A stretch of DNA of 64,000 nucleotides from an uncultured Candidatus Actinomarina sp. (GTDB taxonomy: Bacteria > Actinomycetota > Acidimicrobiia > Actinomarinales > Actinomarinaceae). Both the position numbers and the translations under genes were made by a program. A model generated the notes under the pieces. That model was not told where the DNA came from. It saw only the letters and a program-made list of their open reading frames with translations, and ran no database searches. Shown here one piece after another: positions 3,317 through 58,811 of this stretch (within the stretch, counting starts at the first letter, position 1; the number at the start of each line of letters is the position of its first letter). The stretch is taken from positions 847 through 64,846 of the forward strand of contig CACAND010000005.1 of the NCBI GenBank assembly GCA_902533795.1, given 5' to 3'.

Positions 3317-3398
3317 GCCGGGATGCCCGAGCGGCCAAAGGGAGCAGACTGTAAATCTGCCGGCTATGCCTACGTAGGTTCGAATCCTTCTCCCGGCA
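3317..3398 (+). tRNA. tRNA-Tyr (anticodon GTA), long variable arm
   Basis: 7-bp acceptor gccggga/tcccggc, anticodon loop cuGUAaa, variable arm ggctatgcctacgtagg, T-loop ttcgaat. Confidence 0.85.
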
Positions 3399-3401
3399 CT
3401 G

Positions 3402-3474
3402 GCCCTCTTAGCTCAGCTGGTAGAGCACTTCCATGGTAAGGAAGAGGTCTCCGGTTCAAACCCGGAAGAGGGCT
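3402..3474 (+). tRNA. tRNA-Thr (anticodon GGT)
   Basis: acceptor gccctct/agagggc, D-arm gctcagctggtagagc, anticodon loop atGGTaa, T-loop ttcaaac. Confidence 0.85.
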
Positions 3475-3499
3475 CCCAAGTCTATAATTAATTAGGTTT

Positions 3500-3573
3500 G
3501 GCGGCGTAGCTCAGTTGGTAAGAGCGCACGACTCATAATCGTGAGGTCGGCAGTTCAAGTCTGCCCGCCGCTA
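3500..3573 (+). tRNA. tRNA-Met (anticodon CAT), elongator type
   Basis: acceptor ggcggcg/cgccgct, anticodon loop ctCATaa, T-arm ggcag-ttcaagt-ctgcc. Confidence 0.8.
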
Positions 3574-3595
3574 CAAGAAAATAGGAGGAATAGAA

Positions 3596-4375: not shown

Positions 4376-4752
4376 GAGAATTATTAGATAGTTTAAAAGA
4401 CAATTTCATATGCAGAAGAAAAAGAAGTCAAATGATGAGAACATATTTAAGTGGTAAGTATTTTCTTTTTGATTCGGACAATCATATTTCCTATTGTCCA
4501 AAATGCCAAGTAGCTGGAAAACGATATAAAGCTTTCAGAGAAGAACTTGAATCTGAGGTAAATAAAGAAGTTGAAGTACCTAGTGATTTTGCCTCCAAAG
4601 TAATTGATTCGCTTGATAAAAAAGTAAAAACAACTACAAATAAGGGTACAAAAATAATACTATTATCTTTAATTGGTTTAATATCATTGTTAATTTTAGT
4701 TTTTGGAATAAAGCGCTCTTCTAACAAGATTGATGATATTGATAAAGATTAG
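4372..4752 (+). CDS. membrane-anchored ZAS-family anti-sigma factor
   Basis: GTGA start/stop overlap with sigma gene; C-x21-HISYCPKC = ZAS HxxxCxxC motif; C-terminal TM helix (IILLSLIGLISLLILVFGI); stop TAG overlaps first 2 nt of tRNA-Trp. Confidence 0.7.
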   Translation: MRELLDSLKDNFICRRKRSQMMRTYLSGKYFLFDSDNHISYCPKCQVAGKRYKAFREELESEVNKEVEVPSDFASKVIDSLDKKVKTTTNKGTKIILLSLIGLISLLILVFGIKRSSNKIDDIDKD

Positions 4753-4824
4753 GGGTGTAGCTCTAACTGGCAGAGCGCCGGTCTCCAAAACCGGAGGTTG
4801 TGAGTTCGAATCTCACCGCCCCTG
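4751..4824 (+). tRNA. tRNA-Trp (anticodon CCA)
   Basis: Near-identical to canonical bacterial tRNA-Trp: aggggtg-ta-gctc...ggtCTCCAAAaccgg...gtgagttcgaatctcac-cgcccct-g. Confidence 0.9.
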
Positions 4825-4838
4825 CTAACGAGGTAATT

Positions 4839-37945: not shown

Positions 37946-37977
37946 TAAAACTTAACGATATACTTTTCTTAACGAGC

Positions 37978-38135
37978 AATTTAGCGCCAGGCCTTTAACG
38001 AGGTGACGAGGAAGTATGTTATCGAAAAATTCGGCGGATGCATACTCGGCACTGCAGTCGATATAAATTGTTAAAAACAGGAAGAAATTTCTGAACAGAG
38101 ACAATTTAACGCAGTCTTTATTTTAACCTGCTCGT
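37978..38135 (+). ncRNA. glmS leader: glmS ribozyme / GlcN6P riboswitch-like leader
   Basis: AGCGCCAG... then GACGAGGAAGUAUGUUAUCGAAAAAUUCGGCGGAUGC closely matches the conserved catalytic core of the Bacillus-type glmS ribozyme; placed directly 5' of glmS. Confidence 0.7.
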
Positions 38136-38150
38136 TGGAATGGAGAAAAA

Positions 38151-39947
38151 ATGTGTGGAATAGTTGGGTATTCAGGCCCAAAAGAACCCTTGCCAATCTT
38201 AATAAATGGATTGTCTAGATTAGAGTATCGAGGATACGACTCAGCAGGAATTGCAATTTCCGATGGGAACAAAATAACCATTGAAAAAAAAGAAGGTAAA
38301 CTCGACTTCTTAAAAGATCATCTAAAAAATAATCAAATCTCTGGAAACGTAGGCATTGGTCATACAAGATGGGCGACCCATGGCGTACCAAATGATGTAA
38401 ATGCTCATCCTCACTCGGATAACAATGAAGAATTTGCGATTATTCATAATGGGATAATTGAAAATTATGCAGAAATTAAAAAAGATCTTTTAAACGAAGG
38501 ATTTGAATTTAAGTCTGATACTGACACTGAGGTAGTAGCTGTAGAGCTTAGCAGAAAATGGAGTGGGGAATTGCTTAAAACTGTAGTGGATGTTGCAAAC
38601 TCTCTTGAAGGAACTTATGCACTCCTCGTAACTACTACTAAAGAAGAAGGAACTATCGTTGCTGGAAGATTAATGAGCCCATTAGTTTTAGGAGTTGGCG
38701 ATGATGAAGTGTTTCTTGCGTCTGATTCGGCAGCAATACTAGAGCATACAAAAAAGATGATATTTCTTGAAAATGGTGATTTTGTAGAAATTAAAAATGG
38801 TAAATATAAGTTGTTTGACTCAGACTTAAATGAAATTGAAAGAGAGATCCAAGAAATAGACTGGGAGGTCTCTGAAGCAGAGAAATCAGGATATGACCAT
38901 TTTATGTATAAAGAGATACTTGAACAGTCTGAAGTAATTGAAAGAACTATTTCGGGAAGGCTGGACACAAATTCTGATGATATTCCGATTATGTCAGATC
39001 ATGCTTCTAAATTTGAAAAAATTTGGATAGTTGCATGCGGAACTGCTTATCATGCAGGTTTATTTGGCAAAGATCTGTTTGAGAAAGTTCTTGGTGTTCC
39101 AGTAAGCGTTGAGTTAGCTTCAGAGTTTAGATACAGGGAGCCGATTGTTGGGAAAAATGATTTAGGTATTGTAATCTCACAGTCTGGAGAAACAATGGAT
39201 ACAATTGCTGCAACAGAACTGCTTAAAGAAAATGGCTCACACGTACTCGCCCTAGTTAATGTTGTTGGAAGCTCATTGGCAAGAATGGCTGATAGTGTAT
39301 TTTACTTACATGTTGGTCCAGAGATCGGTGTAGCTTCTACTAAAGCTTATTTAGGTATGCTCGTATCTCAACTAGTACTTGCTAAACATTGGGACTCTCA
39401 AAATAGATTGGATGTATCTTTTGATCAGATTGCAGAACTTCCAAATCTAATAGACAAAACAATGGCTTGCGAAGATCAAATAAAACAGATATCTGAAAAA
39501 ATTTACAAAAAGAATGACATTTATTTTATTGGAAGAGGTTTGGATTATGCATTGGCAGCTGAAGGTGCCTTGAAATTAAAAGAGATTTCATATCTGCACG
39601 CTGAAGCATTGGCAGCAGGAGAGCTTAAGCATGGTACGCTAGCTTTGATAGAAGAAGGAACCCCTGTAGTAGTTACTGCTAGTCAAAATCATCTGCTCGA
39701 TAAGACAACCAGTAATGTACAAGAGGTCATTGCAAGGGGTGCATATGTTATTGCTATTGGAGACAGTGAGTCAGAAAAACTAGAAAATATATCAAATGAT
39801 TATGTGACACTCCCAGATAGTAATGAAATACTCACTACTGTGATATCGATTATACCTTTACAATTTATTGCTTATCATGTAGCAAATAAAAATGGCCAGT
39901 CGATTGATCAACCAAGAAACCTTGCAAAGTCAGTTACTGTAGAATAA
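38151..39947 (+). CDS. glmS: glutamine--fructose-6-phosphate aminotransferase
   Basis: 598 aa starting MCGIVGY (Ntn Cys) with two SIS domains. Confidence 0.95.
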   Translation: MCGIVGYSGPKEPLPILINGLSRLEYRGYDSAGIAISDGNKITIEKKEGKLDFLKDHLKNNQISGNVGIGHTRWATHGVPNDVNAHPHSDNNEEFAIIHNGIIENYAEIKKDLLNEGFEFKSDTDTEVVAVELSRKWSGELLKTVVDVANSLEGTYALLVTTTKEEGTIVAGRLMSPLVLGVGDDEVFLASDSAAILEHTKKMIFLENGDFVEIKNGKYKLFDSDLNEIEREIQEIDWEVSEAEKSGYDHFMYKEILEQSEVIERTISGRLDTNSDDIPIMSDHASKFEKIWIVACGTAYHAGLFGKDLFEKVLGVPVSVELASEFRYREPIVGKNDLGIVISQSGETMDTIAATELLKENGSHVLALVNVVGSSLARMADSVFYLHVGPEIGVASTKAYLGMLVSQLVLAKHWDSQNRLDVSFDQIAELPNLIDKTMACEDQIKQISEKIYKKNDIYFIGRGLDYALAAEGALKLKEISYLHAEALAAGELKHGTLALIEEGTPVVVTASQNHLLDKTTSNVQEVIARGAYVIAIGDSESEKLENISNDYVTLPDSNEILTTVISIIPLQFIAYHVANKNGQSIDQPRNLAKSVTVE

Positions 39948-57562: not shown

Positions 57563-57973
57563 TTATTTACAATTCTTGCATATACCTGTGTAGACAAAAT
57601 GATTATCGGTCAATTTATACATTGAGTTTTTTTCAATAATTTTTTCAACCGATTCCATAACTTTCACTGAAATATCTTCAATGGCATTACAAATTTTGCA
57701 AACAATGTGTGTGTTTTTTTCATATTTTTTTAGATAATAAATCCCGGAACCATGTTGCTGATGAGAGTGTTCAATAATATTTAATGACTCAAGTATGTCC
57801 AATGTTCTGTAAACAGTTGCTAAATCTATATCTTTTACCTTTTTTAAAGCTAAATTATATAATTCCTCTGCAGTGAAGTGTTCGTGTCCTGATTCCTCTA
57901 ATATATTGCAAATTGTGCTTCTTGATTCAGTTATTCTGTTACCATTTTTTTTTAGTTTACTAATCAGATCCAT
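57563..57973 (-). CDS. Fur-family metal-dependent transcriptional regulator (Zur/Nur/Fur)
   Basis: 136 aa; winged helix, HSHQQHG metal site, CKIC...CKNC structural zinc site. Confidence 0.85.
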   Translation of the reverse strand: MDLISKLKKNGNRITESRSTICNILEESGHEHFTAEELYNLALKKVKDIDLATVYRTLDILESLNIIEHSHQQHGSGIYYLKKYEKNTHIVCKICNAIEDISVKVMESVEKIIEKNSMYKLTDNHFVYTGICKNCK

Positions 57974-58008
57974 AGTTAAAGTATAATTTGTGAAAAGATT
58001 GTTATTAC

Positions 58009-58482
58009 ATGAAAAAAATACTTTTAAAGTTCATAAATAGATACAGCCTAATTTATTTACCACTGGGATGGATATTTGGACTAGCTATATTTTTTATTGC
58101 TTTTGAACCATCAATCGTACTCTATATATTAAGTTTCTTTGTTTTAGGAACTTTTTTTGCATTGTATATTTTTAATTCAAAGAGAAGCCTTGTCTTAGAT
58201 GATCACAATTTTGCAAATTCTGATTACACAATAATTGAATTCTATTCCGATTACTGACTAGGTTGTACTGCATCAAAATTCATAGTTAATGAATTCAAAA
58301 AATTAAACCCCGAAATACCAATTGTCTCAGTGAATGCCTCTAAGAAAGATTATCTAGAAATCACACAAAAATATAATTTAAAGTACACCCCAACATATGT
58401 ATTAGTTGATTCAACTGGTGAAAAAATATACAAACGGGTTGGTAATTTTAATATTGAGAAGTTTAACTCAATAATTTCCTAA
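58009..58482 (+). CDS. membrane-anchored thioredoxin-fold protein with in-frame TGA at the redox motif (candidate selenoprotein U-x-x-C, or recently disrupted CxxC gene)
   Basis: The 58009..58257 ORF ends at TGA 58255-58257 and the same frame continues with no stop and no ATG/TTG start to TAA 58480-58482 (one weak in-frame GTG far downstream); combined product ...TIIEFYSDY-[TGA]-LGCTASKF...KYTPTYVLVDSTGEKIYKRVGNF has thioredoxin-fold features: beta1-[U/C]xxC and cis-Pro TPT; hairpin aattcat-agtta-atgaatt at 58278-58296. Confidence 0.55.
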
Positions 58483-58811
58483 GATACTTTATCACCTATC
58501 ATCGAACCTTCACTTGGTTTTAGCAACAATACATTGCCATTAGAATCTGTAGAACCAAGTATTAAACATTGACTAATAATTGGACCAATTTGCTTGTCAC
58601 CTAAATTTACTATTCCTATACATTTGAAACCGATTAATTCACTGGTGTCATAATTAGTAATCTGAGCACTTGTTTTCTTTATTCCAATATGTTTACCAAA
58701 GTCAATTTTTAAAATATAAGCAGGTTTTTTGGCTTCTTCAAAAACTTCCGCTGATAAAATTTCGCCAATTCTTATATCTAATTTGGCAAATTTTTCAACA
58801 TTAGTTTCCAT
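58479..58811 (-). CDS. CsaA/Trbp111-like tRNA-binding domain protein
   Basis: 110 aa; LDIRIGEILSAEVFEEAKKPAYILKIDFG...IVNLGDKQIG OB-fold tRNA-binding signature; stop overlaps the convergent thioredoxin-like gene. Confidence 0.7.
   Translation of the reverse strand: METNVEKFAKLDIRIGEILSAEVFEEAKKPAYILKIDFGKHIGIKKTSAQITNYDTSELIGFKCIGIVNLGDKQIGPIISQCLILGSTDSNGNVLLLKPSEGSMIGDKVS

What the first reader, a model, noticed from the sequence alone, without database searches (positions are those of the whole stretch)
58009..58482. Thioredoxin-fold membrane protein with TGA exactly at the CxxC position: candidate selenoprotein (U-L-G-C)
The annotated 82-aa ORF stops at TGA 58255-58257. The same frame then runs 75 more codons with no stop and no ATG or TTG start codon (the only in-frame GTG lies 25 codons downstream and would leave a ~50-aa fragment). 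That stretch is the rest of a thioredoxin fold (beta-strand TIIEFYSDY, then [TGA]-LGC, later cis-Pro TPT and C-terminal beta/alpha). The TGA occupies the N-terminal redox Cys of the WCxxC-type motif, the most common site of selenocysteine in bacterial Trx-like, DsbA-like and Prx-like selenoproteins. A 7-bp hairpin with a GU-containing loop sits 21-39 nt downstream, where a bacterial SECIS is expected. Elsewhere in the window TGA is a normal stop, so this is not recoding. The alternative is a single-base TGY-to-TGA lesion, meaning a pseudogene or a sequencing error.
Basis: partly seen in the sequence, partly recalled or inferred. Interest (0 to 1): 0.85.

Follow-up and report, generated by a model that had tools for sequence, protein, structure and literature searches.

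The report
Membrane-anchored thioredoxin-like selenoprotein gene
The "82-codon gene" is the front half of a 157-codon membrane-anchored thioredoxin-like protein whose in-frame TGA is almost certainly read as selenocysteine; this is a real but fairly ordinary kind of selenoprotein that public annotation of the abundant marine bacterium Actinomarina cuts short.

Summary
Window 58009-58482 (+) is one 157-codon frame, with TGA at codon 83 in the motif FYSDY-[TGA]-LGC. The window comes from Candidatus Actinomarina (33.5% GC), where TGA otherwise serves as a stop.

- **Conservation.** The codon is TGA in all 55 orthologous loci examined (48-98% protein identity). Flanking codons carry many synonymous changes, and dN/dS downstream of the TGA is about 0.08-0.09.
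- **Cys/Sec pair.** More distant homologues with the same architecture (two membrane helices plus a thioredoxin domain) fall into two groups. Some have C-x-x-C at this column. Others have TGA-x-x-C; this was checked on DNA for 7 families.
- **SECIS-like hairpin.** A 7-bp hairpin with an N-G-U-N-R pentaloop sits 19 nt after the TGA, in the same codon register in every TGA form. Six of its seven pairs covary, the loop G-U is invariant, and synonymous sites within it are frozen. It is thermodynamically weak in Actinomarina and fails the usual -7.5 kcal/mol cutoff.
- **Sec machinery.** I could not find it in the sequence I hold. A 2026 preprint reports selA, selB, selC and selD in all 84 complete Actinomarina genomes.

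Verdict: a new member of a known kind (Trx-fold UxxC selenoprotein), currently annotated as an 82-aa hypothetical protein. Its function is inferred, not shown.

The parts
58009..58482 (+). Complete selenoprotein CDS: 157 codons (Sec at codon 83) plus TAA stop
   Evidence: Full-length homologues of 157 aa. dN/dS downstream of the TGA is 0.08-0.09.
58255..58257 (+). In-frame TGA, inferred selenocysteine codon (U83), first position of the U-L-G-C redox motif
   Evidence: TGA in 55/55 orthologous loci. Aligns to the first Cys of CxxC in thioredoxin and PDI and to Cys in distant homologues.
58258..58260 (+). Leu84 codon CTA, giving the context UGA-C
   Evidence: Always CTN in 47 distinct orthologues, although TTA/TTG make up 55% of Leu codons in the window's long ORFs. 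A role for this context in decoding is inferred.
58264..58266 (+). Cys86 codon (TGT), the presumed resolving Cys of UxxC
   Evidence: Invariant C86 in alignment A1. One MAG variant has Phe here (L047).
58277..58295 (+). SECIS-like hairpin: 7-bp stem (58277-58283 with 58289-58295) and AGUUA pentaloop (58284-58288)
   Evidence: Stem kept in 45/45 distinct Actinomarinales sequences. Across families 6/7 pairs covary, with 96.8% of cells paired against 16-45% in slid controls. Loop G and U are invariant. Codons 91-93 use a single codon each in 43-47 of 47 sequences.
58045..58179 (+). Two predicted membrane helices (residues 13-31 and 36-57), preceded by the conserved N-x-Y-S motif
   Evidence: AlphaFold2 model with mean pLDDT 85.5; hydropathy and charge analysis; conserved N10, Y12, S13 and the same motif in distant homologues.
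58204..58479 (+). Thioredoxin-fold domain (residues about 66-157), with the cis-Pro candidate P128 at 58390-58392
   Evidence: Pfam PF00085 at 25.8 bits against a cutoff of 23.5. Foldseek top PDB hits are all thioredoxins, target TM-score 0.70-0.76. Secondary structure is beta-alpha-beta-alpha-beta-beta-alpha.
57982..57987 (+). Conserved TATAAT, 21 nt upstream of the ATG; candidate -10 box of the selenoprotein gene
   Evidence: Conserved as (G)TATAAT or TATATT in the aligned upstream regions of orthologues. The consensus promoter scan did not call it because there is no -35 match. Function is inferred.
57563..57973 (-). Divergently transcribed Fur-family regulator gene, 35 bp from the selenoprotein start
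   Evidence: NCBIfam Fur and PerR models match below cutoff. Adjacent and divergent in 54 of 55 loci.
58479..58811 (-). Convergent CsaA-like tRNA-binding protein gene; its 3' end overlaps the selenoprotein stop codon by 4 nt
   Evidence: NCBIfam NF007494 at 124 bits against a cutoff of 109. Conserved position in 53 of 55 loci. Listed as context only.

Best explanation
Window 58009-58482 encodes a single 157-residue selenoprotein of Candidatus Actinomarina. An N-terminal hairpin of two membrane helices carries a thioredoxin-fold domain whose redox motif is Y-U-L-G-C. The UGA at codon 83 is decoded as selenocysteine by Sec-tRNA(Sec) delivered by SelB. SelB is recruited by a small hairpin in the coding sequence: 7 bp, pentaloop A-G-U-U-R, starting 19 nt after the UGA. 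The protein most likely acts as a membrane-tethered thiol-disulfide (selenosulfide) oxidoreductase, with Sec83 as the attacking nucleophile and Cys86 as the resolving residue.

Shown here: one conserved reading frame; a fixed UGA; the Cys/Sec pair; a conserved and covarying hairpin; the thioredoxin fold.

Inferred: Sec insertion itself, SelB binding, the redox function, and membrane topology. The charge distribution suggests the Trx domain faces the cytoplasm in Actinomarinales.
For: - **Fixed TGA.** TGA at this codon in 55/55 Actinomarinales loci at 48-98% identity, with synonymous variation in the neighbouring codons.
- **Translated downstream frame.** dN/dS downstream of the TGA is 0.083 and 0.091 for two unsaturated pairs.
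- **Cys/Sec pair.** A profile search finds about 160-aa homologues with the same architecture. Many have CxxC at this column. Others are recorded with 'W', and in all 7 of those checked on DNA the codon is TGA. Two Cys forms checked have TGT and TGC.
- **Hairpin.** It is present in the same codon register in every TGA form. 6/7 pairs show compensatory changes, 96.8% of cells are paired against 16-45% for slid controls, and the loop G-U is invariant. It is incomplete in the two Cys forms.
- **Synonymous-site constraint.** Codon entropy is 0.36 bits over codons 89-96 against 1.11 bits elsewhere (p = 4e-4). Phe91 is always TTC although TTT is 84% of Phe codons in the window's long ORFs; Ile92 is always ATA and Val93 always GTT.
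- **RNA constrains the protein.** Arg at +12, whose AGG pairs with the Pro CCU, occurs in 12/15 TGA forms but 3/59 Cys forms.
- **SECIS geometry.** The geometry meets criteria (i)-(iii) of the published bSECIS model (PMC13188914).
- **Fold.** Thioredoxin fold with residue 83 at the N-cap of helix 84-99.
- **TGA is a stop elsewhere**, and tRNA-Trp has anticodon CCA.
- **Machinery reported.** selA, selB (divergent), selC and selD are reported in all 84 complete Actinomarina genomes, with about 5 predicted selenoproteins per genome (bioRxiv 10.64898/2026.04.03.716425).
Against: - I found no Sec-machinery gene or tRNA-Sec in the window or in about 1 Mb of orthologous flanks. My attempts to retrieve Actinomarina selA elsewhere failed. 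The machinery therefore rests on one preprint.
- The hairpin is weak: -3.5 kcal/mol alone at 37 C and -5.7 for the 63-nt context, no better than shuffles. It fails the -7.5 kcal/mol criterion.
- No Rfam SECIS model matches.
- There is no protein-level evidence for selenium.
- Within Actinomarinales alone only one pair covaries. The strong covariation signal comes from comparison with distant families, and it lies in coding sequence where amino-acid change is confounded with base change.
Confidence: 0.9

Rival explanations
1. Programmed stop-codon read-through without selenocysteine. The UGA-C context and the downstream hairpin promote insertion of a standard residue (Trp, Cys or Arg) by a near-cognate tRNA. 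This would yield a mixture of an 82-residue membrane peptide and a full-length protein.
For: UGA-C is conserved, and it is known to be a leaky termination context in bacteria (general knowledge). The hairpin is weak for a SECIS. I did not see the Sec genes myself.
Against: The column is Cys in homologues, as expected for a Cys/Sec pair, and sits at the catalytic CxxC position; Trp or Arg there would destroy the redox site. The loop carries the invariant G-U typical of SelB-binding SECIS loops. The lineage is reported to carry complete Sec machinery.
Confidence: 0.05
2. Pseudogene or sequencing error: a single TGY-to-TGA change in an ordinary Cys-containing thioredoxin-like gene.
For: A single base separates TGA from TGT or TGC. 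Public annotation stops the gene at 82 aa.
Against: TGA appears in 55/55 independent SAGs, MAGs and metagenome contigs spanning 48-98% identity, and no Actinomarinales orthologue has TGY. The downstream frame is intact and under purifying selection. The same holds in 7 distant families.
Confidence: 0.01
3. Two separate products: an 82-residue membrane peptide ending at a true stop, and an independently initiated C-terminal thioredoxin fragment.
For: An in-frame GTG at 58330 could start a 50-aa product.
Against: A 50-aa fragment would lack the beta1 strand, the redox motif and helix alpha1 of the fold. The GTG codon is Ile in many orthologues. Codons 84-107 are conserved at the protein level, with L84, G85, C86, A88, S89, I92, V93, E95 and F96 invariant, which makes no sense if they are untranslated.
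Confidence: 0.02
4. Genome-wide reassignment of UGA to Trp (genetic code 4), as the 'W' in database proteins would suggest.
For: Full-length database proteins show W at residue 83.
Against: Those proteins do not translate from their own DNA under code 11; the W comes from calling short contigs with code 4. TGA ends 17 of 63 long ORFs in the window. The window's tRNA-Trp has anticodon CCA. Homologues have Cys, not Trp, at this column.
Confidence: 0.01

Closest known systems
Thioredoxin selenoproteins (Trx, PF00085, UxxC), listed among experimentally supported bacterial selenoproteins in PMC13188914
   Same: Thioredoxin fold; Sec replaces the N-terminal attacking Cys of CxxC; Cys-containing homologues exist; a SECIS hairpin lies in the coding sequence just after the UGA.
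   Different: This protein has an N-terminal two-helix membrane domain with a conserved N-x-Y-S motif. Its motif is Y-U-L-G-C rather than W-U-G-P-C. It scores far below the TrxA equivalog model (TIGR01068, 28.7 bits against a cutoff of 96.8).
Predicted 'thiol:disulfide interchange protein' selenoproteins (PF13098, UxxC) and membrane-anchored Trx-like proteins such as ResA, StoA and TlpA
   Same: Membrane-associated Trx-fold oxidoreductase with a UxxC or CxxC motif. StoA (3erw) is among the structural matches.
   Different: Those proteins have a single N-terminal anchor and an extracytoplasmic domain. Here there are two helices, and in Actinomarinales the charge distribution predicts a cytoplasmic domain. 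PF13098 scores below threshold (23.8 bits against 27).
Escherichia coli fdhF-type bacterial SECIS and the bSECISearch consensus model
   Same: A stem-loop in the coding region. G followed by U lies within the first positions of a small apical loop. The 26-nt spacing between UGA and loop falls within the 16-37 nt range.
   Different: Only 7 AU-rich base pairs, and an MFE of -3.5 to -5.8 kcal/mol in Actinomarinales, above the -7.5 cutoff. No Rfam SECIS model matches. From my own knowledge of the fdhF element, the bulged U it carries has no counterpart here.
Actinomarina selenoproteome predicted by deep-Sep (bioRxiv 10.64898/2026.04.03.716425)
   Same: Same lineage. About 5 selenoproteins per genome are predicted, most of them uncharacterised. 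This gene is very probably one of them.
   Different: The preprint names only a 78-aa family, SelD and a K07090 family. It mentions no thioredoxin-like selenoprotein, gives no SECIS, and its supplement holds no list of the selenoproteins.

Membership tests
Bacterial selenoprotein gene (Sec-decoded UGA) | In-frame UGA conserved among orthologues, with a conserved reading frame on both sides | tested here: met
   55/55 loci have TGA. Invariant residues lie on both sides. dN/dS downstream is 0.08-0.09.
Bacterial selenoprotein gene (Sec-decoded UGA) | Cys/Sec pair: homologues with Cys aligned to the UGA | tested here: met
   CxxC forms and TGA-xxC forms occur in the same family. DNA was checked for 7 TGA forms and 2 Cys forms.
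Bacterial selenoprotein gene (Sec-decoded UGA) | bSECIS geometry: 3-9 nt apical loop, 4-16 bp upper stem, G in the first two loop positions (usually followed by G or U), 16-37 nt between UGA and loop | tested here: met
   5-nt loop AGUUA, 7-bp stem, 26 nt between UGA and loop. Criteria taken from PMC13188914. Covariation in 6/7 pairs.
Bacterial selenoprotein gene (Sec-decoded UGA) | bSECIS stability: MFE at or below -7.5 kcal/mol | tested here: not met
   Window hairpin -3.5 kcal/mol at 37 C, or -6.2 at 20 C; 63-nt context -5.7. Three of the 7 distant TGA forms reach -8.6 or lower, down to -12.8, at 37 C for the hairpin alone.
Bacterial selenoprotein gene (Sec-decoded UGA) | selA, selB, selC and selD present in the same genome | not testable with these tools
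   None found in the window or in the roughly 1 Mb of orthologous flanks; the rest of the genome is not available to me. Reported present in 84/84 complete Actinomarina genomes.
Bacterial selenoprotein gene (Sec-decoded UGA) | Selenium demonstrated in the protein | not testable with these tools
   Needs mass spectrometry or 75Se labelling.
Thioredoxin fold / Pfam PF00085 | Profile match above the gathering threshold, and a beta-alpha-beta-alpha-beta-beta-alpha fold with the redox motif at the N-cap of alpha1 and a cis-Pro loop | tested here: met
   25.8 bits against 23.5 with U replaced by C. AF2 mean pLDDT 85.5, residue 83 immediately before helix 84-99, and P128 immediately before strand 129-134. 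Foldseek top hits are thioredoxins.
Canonical thioredoxin TrxA (NCBIfam TIGR01068 equivalog) | Score above the curated cutoff | tested here: not met
   28.7 bits against a cutoff of 96.8.
Curated Trx-like selenoprotein families in NCBIfam (PDO_seleno_TRX TIGR02187, SaoT NF040730, HUIPC NF047660, VPGUxxT NF041383, TsoB NF045694) | Score above the curated cutoff | tested here: not met
   Only TIGR02187 matched the window protein, at 16.7 bits against 185. TsoB matched only two distant Cys forms, far below cutoff. The other families gave no match at E <= 0.01.
Genetic code 4 (UGA = Trp) | UGA not used as a stop; tRNA-Trp with anticodon UCA | tested here: not met
   17 of 63 long ORFs end in TGA. 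The tRNA-Trp anticodon is CCA.

The most novel reading that the evidence does not exclude
This gene may be one of the core clients that keep the whole selenocysteine apparatus in a roughly 1-Mb streamlined genome. Sec is fixed in every Actinomarinales orthologue seen, with no Cys variant. It is decoded through an unusually minimal AU-rich SECIS (7 bp plus an N-G-U-N-R pentaloop at a fixed codon register). That hairpin has been inherited together with the UGA across very distant members of the family, and it dictates amino acids in the protein (Phe...Glu or Pro...Arg). In Actinomarinales the membrane anchor also appears to have flipped, so that the selenothioredoxin domain would face the cytoplasm, under a promoter shared with a Fur/PerR-type regulator. 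That would point to a membrane-proximal metal or peroxide stress role.
Probability: 0.25. Interest if true: 0.55.

Novelty: new member of a known kind. Interest (0 to 1): 0.4.

Why it matters
Actinomarina is among the most abundant bacteria of the sunlit ocean, and its genome has almost no spare capacity. A selenoprotein fixed in every member helps explain why such a genome keeps four dedicated Sec genes.

In practice, the GenBank and IMG names I saw record this gene as an 82-aa hypothetical protein or as 'thioredoxin-related' fragments. Large protein collections show a spurious Trp at the Sec position, because short contigs were called with code 4. Both errors will mislead selenoproteome surveys.

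The family also offers a compact, comparative example of a SECIS that standard energy thresholds would reject.

Tried and rejected
- **Sec genes and tRNA-Sec in held sequence.** ARAGORN on the window and 51 genome loci, and tblastn with E. coli SelA, SelB and SelD, found only EF-Tu.
- **Protein search with E. coli SelA**, hoping for entries named Actinomarina. Only the best 120 hits are listed, and all are enterobacterial.
- **Metagenome scan with an AT-biased back-translation of the SelA motif GDKLLGGPQ.** This gave 120 loci from many organisms. None could be assigned to Actinomarina by tetranucleotide similarity, by blastn or tblastx against the Actinomarina sequence I hold, by neighbouring tRNAs, or by the 'MRLT' SelD prefix quoted in the preprint. 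The best composition match (L068) also carries an ORF next to selB whose sequence looked to me like an outer-membrane protein (not tested with any tool), so it is probably not an actinobacterium.
- **Extending the window upstream** towards the hypervariable region by exact-protein look-up: nothing on record.
- **Rfam on 58200-58400:** no SECIS family, only chance-level hits.
- **Second selenoprotein gene in the window.** A scan of all in-frame TGAs with coding potential on both sides gave only this gene, the secE/nusG junction, and antisense shadows.
- **Hairpin stability as evidence:** rejected, since the z-score is -0.33.
- **Consensus promoter and terminator scan:** nothing beyond chance.

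Full report
**1. What is in the sequence.**

Window 58009-58482 on the + strand is a single frame: ATG, 82 sense codons, TGA at 58255-58257, 74 more sense codons, then TAA at 58480-58482. The residues around the TGA read TIIEFYSDY-[TGA]-LGCTASKFIVNEF.

After the TGA there is no in-frame ATG or TTG. The only start-type codon is GTG at 58330, which would give a 50-aa fragment.

The window is 33.5% GC. TGA terminates 17 of its 63 long ORFs, and the one tRNA-Trp has anticodon CCA. UGA is therefore an ordinary stop in this organism.

**2. Where it comes from and how conserved it is.**

A protein search with Cys substituted for the TGA found 70 relatives. A scan of one genome per species then found 51 loci, almost all labelled Candidatus Actinomarina, Actinomarinales or OCS155, at 48-98% protein identity.

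Full-length database proteins show 'W' at residue 83, while others end at ...FYSDY. The DNA explains both. In all 55 orthologous loci the codon is TGA, and the 'W' proteins do not translate from their own contigs under code 11. The W is an artefact of gene calling with code 4 on short contigs.

The codons next to the TGA vary synonymously (TAC/TAT, CTA/CTG/CTT/CTC, GGT/GGA/GGC/GGG, TGT/TGC), so the TGA itself is under selection. Downstream of the TGA, dN/dS is 0.083 and 0.091 for two pairs that are not saturated. Many downstream residues are invariant. This excludes a pseudogene, a sequencing error, or an untranslated tail.

Gene order is fixed across the order: esterase, cbiO, cbiQ, a Fur-family gene on the minus strand, this gene on the plus strand, then a convergent csaA-like gene.

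**3. Cys/Sec pair.**

A profile built from the orthologues was scored against 1.84 billion representative proteins. Beyond the Actinomarinales clade it finds proteins of about 160 aa with the same layout: an N-terminal N-x-Y-S motif, two hydrophobic helices, and a thioredoxin domain.

At the aligned column, many have Cys, for example FYSEYCVGC, FESPYCLGC and FYSNLCLMC. Others are recorded with W, for example FYSNYWIAC and MYSDYWVAC. I fetched the DNA for seven of the W forms, from contigs of 27-45% GC. Every one has TGA. Two Cys forms have TGT and TGC. This is the Cys/Sec pairing on which SECIS-independent selenoprotein prediction relies (PMC13188914).

**4. The RNA element.**

Nineteen nucleotides after the TGA lies a hairpin. 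Its arms are 58277-58283 (AAUUCAU) and 58289-58295 (AUGAAUU), and its loop is 58284-58288 (AGUUA).

- **Within Actinomarinales.** The seven pairs are kept in 45 of 45 distinct sequences. One pair moves U-A to U-G to C-G.
- **Across families.** In the seven distant TGA forms a hairpin sits in exactly the same codon register, but with different stem sequences, for example AGCCUGU/AUAGGCU and AGCCCAU/AUGGGCU. The loop is again N-G-U-N-R. On the combined alignment, six of seven pairs show compensatory changes. 96.8% of cells are paired, against 16-45% when the 3' arm is slid by 1-3 columns. The loop G and U are invariant.
- **Cys forms.** The two Cys forms examined do not form the full stem.

Two independent signs show the RNA is under selection.

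- **Frozen synonymous sites.** Mean codon entropy is 0.36 bits over codons 89-96 against 1.11 bits elsewhere in the gene (p = 4e-4). Phe91 is always TTC although TTT is 84% of Phe codons in the window's long ORFs. Ile92 is always ATA and Val93 always GTT.
- **The stem dictates amino acids.** Arg at +12 (AGG, pairing with the Pro CCU at +8) is found in 12 of 15 TGA forms but 3 of 59 Cys forms among the profile hits. These counts are not phylogenetically independent.

Leu84 is always CTN, although TTA/TTG are 55% of Leu codons in the window's long ORFs. This gives a conserved UGA-C context.

Measured against the published bacterial SECIS model (PMC13188914, Fig. 2), the element meets three criteria: loop size, stem length with G-U placement, and UGA-to-loop spacing (26 nt). 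It fails the energy criterion. The hairpin alone is -3.5 kcal/mol at 37 C and -6.2 at 20 C, and the 63-nt context is -5.7, no better than shuffled sequence. No Rfam SECIS family matches. A standard SECIS predictor would therefore probably miss it; the evidence is comparative, not thermodynamic.

**5. The protein.**

With U replaced by C, the sequence passes the Pfam Thioredoxin threshold (25.8 against 23.5 bits). It aligns to thioredoxins and PDI domains with the TGA opposite the first Cys of W-C-x-x-C.

An AlphaFold2 model (mean pLDDT 85.5, pTM 0.77) shows two long helices (residues 13-31 and 36-57) followed by a beta-alpha-beta-alpha-beta-beta-alpha domain. Residue 83 lies immediately before helix 84-99, and Pro128 immediately before strand 129-134. 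The best PDB matches are all thioredoxins, with target TM-scores of 0.70-0.76.

It does not reach the cutoff of any NCBIfam model, including TrxA and the curated Trx-like selenoprotein families. It is therefore a thioredoxin-fold protein, but not a member of a named subfamily.

The charge distribution in the Actinomarinales clade is +4 to +5 before helix 1, no K or R in the inter-helix loop, and +1 to +3 after helix 2. By the positive-inside rule, this predicts both termini, and so the Trx domain, in the cytoplasm. Most distant homologues show the opposite pattern. This is an inference from a simple rule, not a result.

**6. Sec machinery.**

This is the weakest link in my own evidence. Neither the window nor the roughly 1 Mb of orthologous flanks contains tRNA-Sec, selA, selB or selD. 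My attempts to reach those genes in Actinomarina through the protein database and a metagenome scan did not produce a contig I could assign to the lineage.

A 2026 preprint (bioRxiv 10.64898/2026.04.03.716425) reports selC (anticodon UCA), selA and selD in all 84 complete Actinomarina genomes. It also reports a divergent selB, no selenouridine synthase, and about 5 predicted selenoproteins per genome. It names a 78-aa family, SelD and a K07090 family. It mentions no thioredoxin-like selenoprotein, found no SECIS with Rfam models, and its supplement holds no list of the selenoproteins. I take the presence of the machinery from that paper.

**7. Mechanism and rivals.**

The best explanation is SelB-dependent insertion of Sec at UGA83, directed by the hairpin. 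This would yield a membrane-tethered selenothioredoxin in which Sec83 attacks a substrate disulfide (or an oxidised thiol) and Cys86 resolves the selenosulfide. Confidence is 0.9 for 'selenoprotein'. It is much lower for any specific substrate.

The gene starts 35 bp from a divergent Fur-family regulator gene, with a conserved TATAAT 21 nt upstream of its ATG. This suggests shared metal- or peroxide-responsive control, but that is conjecture.

The rivals fare as follows.
- Sec-independent read-through cannot be excluded from sequence alone. It does not fit the catalytic position, the Cys homologues or the G-U loop.
- A pseudogene or sequencing error is contradicted by the comparative data.
- A split gene is contradicted by the comparative data.
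- Code 4 is contradicted by stop-codon usage in the window.

**8. Novelty.**

Trx-fold UxxC proteins are the commonest kind of bacterial selenoprotein (PMC13188914), and Sec use by Actinomarina has been reported. This is therefore a new member of a known kind, not a new principle.

Four points appear to be new:
- The family itself: a two-helix N-x-Y-S membrane domain plus a Trx domain, in both Sec and Cys forms.
- Its fixation as Sec throughout Actinomarinales.
- Its small register-locked SECIS.
- Its annotation in the public records I saw as an 82-aa 'hypothetical protein' (MCH1415722.1 and others), or as fragments called 'thioredoxin-related protein'.

Noticed in passing
P0001-P0062 and P0082-P0111 (database proteins); loci L052-L058 and L181-L188: Large protein collections show Trp at the selenocysteine position, because short metagenomic contigs carrying an in-frame TGA were gene-called with genetic code 4. 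The look-up flag 'translates_to_query: no' exposes this. It is a trap for anyone aligning these proteins, and also a handy way to find candidate selenoproteins.
   Followed up: yes
Residues 1-75 of the protein (window 58009-58233) compared with distant homologues P0082-P0139: The positive-inside rule predicts opposite membrane orientations. In Actinomarinales the N-terminus has +4 to +5, the loop has no K or R, and the stretch after helix 2 has +1 to +3, so the Trx domain would be cytoplasmic. Most distant homologues have an uncharged N-terminus and a +2 to +4 loop, so the Trx domain would be outside.
   Followed up: partly
Codons +8 and +12 after the UGA (window 58279-58281 and 58291-58293): In TGA forms, the two residues encoded by the paired stem codons are coupled: Phe/Glu in Actinomarinales and Pro/Arg elsewhere. 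Arg at +12 occurs in 12/15 TGA forms against 3/59 Cys forms. Here the RNA structure imposes amino acids on the protein.
   Followed up: partly
L047:10244-10309 (MAG JBEROH010000022.1): One orthologue has U-L-G-F instead of U-L-G-C, the resolving Cys being TTT rather than TGT. This is either an assembly error in that MAG or a natural variant lacking the resolving Cys.
   Followed up: no
L011 (JAKVCV010000044.1, labelled 'Saprospiraceae bacterium' MAG): This 4.7-kb contig carries the Actinomarina gene at 83% identity with the same gene order. It is almost certainly an Actinomarina contig mis-binned into a Bacteroidota MAG.
   Followed up: no
window 57982-57987: A conserved TATAAT or TATATT lies 21 nt upstream of the selenoprotein ATG, 8 nt from the start codon (57971-57973, minus strand) of the divergent Fur-family gene. 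The two genes must share a 35-bp control region. The consensus promoter scan did not call it.
   Followed up: partly
window 58479-58482: The selenoprotein stop codon overlaps the 3' end of the convergent CsaA-like tRNA-binding protein gene by 4 nt. No terminator-like hairpin lies between them.
   Followed up: no
window 3317-3574 and 4751-4825: A tRNA-Tyr, tRNA-Thr and tRNA-Met cluster, then tRNA-Trp, precede the secE-nusG-rplK region. The preprint describes Tyr, Thr, Met and Arg tRNAs at the left boundary of the Actinomarina hypervariable region. The 5' end of the window therefore probably abuts that island, where selC sits in 32 of 84 genomes.
   Followed up: no
window 37972-38118: A glmS ribozyme (Rfam RF00234, 84.9 bits) lies immediately upstream of the 598-aa ORF at 38151-39947, presumably glmS.
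   Followed up: no
L190:2225-3318 (Cys-form homologue P0095, NCBI GCA_010092775.1): In one Cys-form relative the gene sits between a MurJ-like flippase gene with a hypothetical gene, and a TPMT/TehB-type methyltransferase gene. This context is quite different from the Actinomarinales one.
   Followed up: no
L061-L180 (metagenomic selA loci): About 29 of the 47 selD genes detected next to selA carry an in-frame TGA at the position of the active-site Cys (motif G-[TGA]-AAKIGP). This is the known Sec form of SelD, and 28 of the 120 loci have tRNA-Sec nearby.
   Followed up: no
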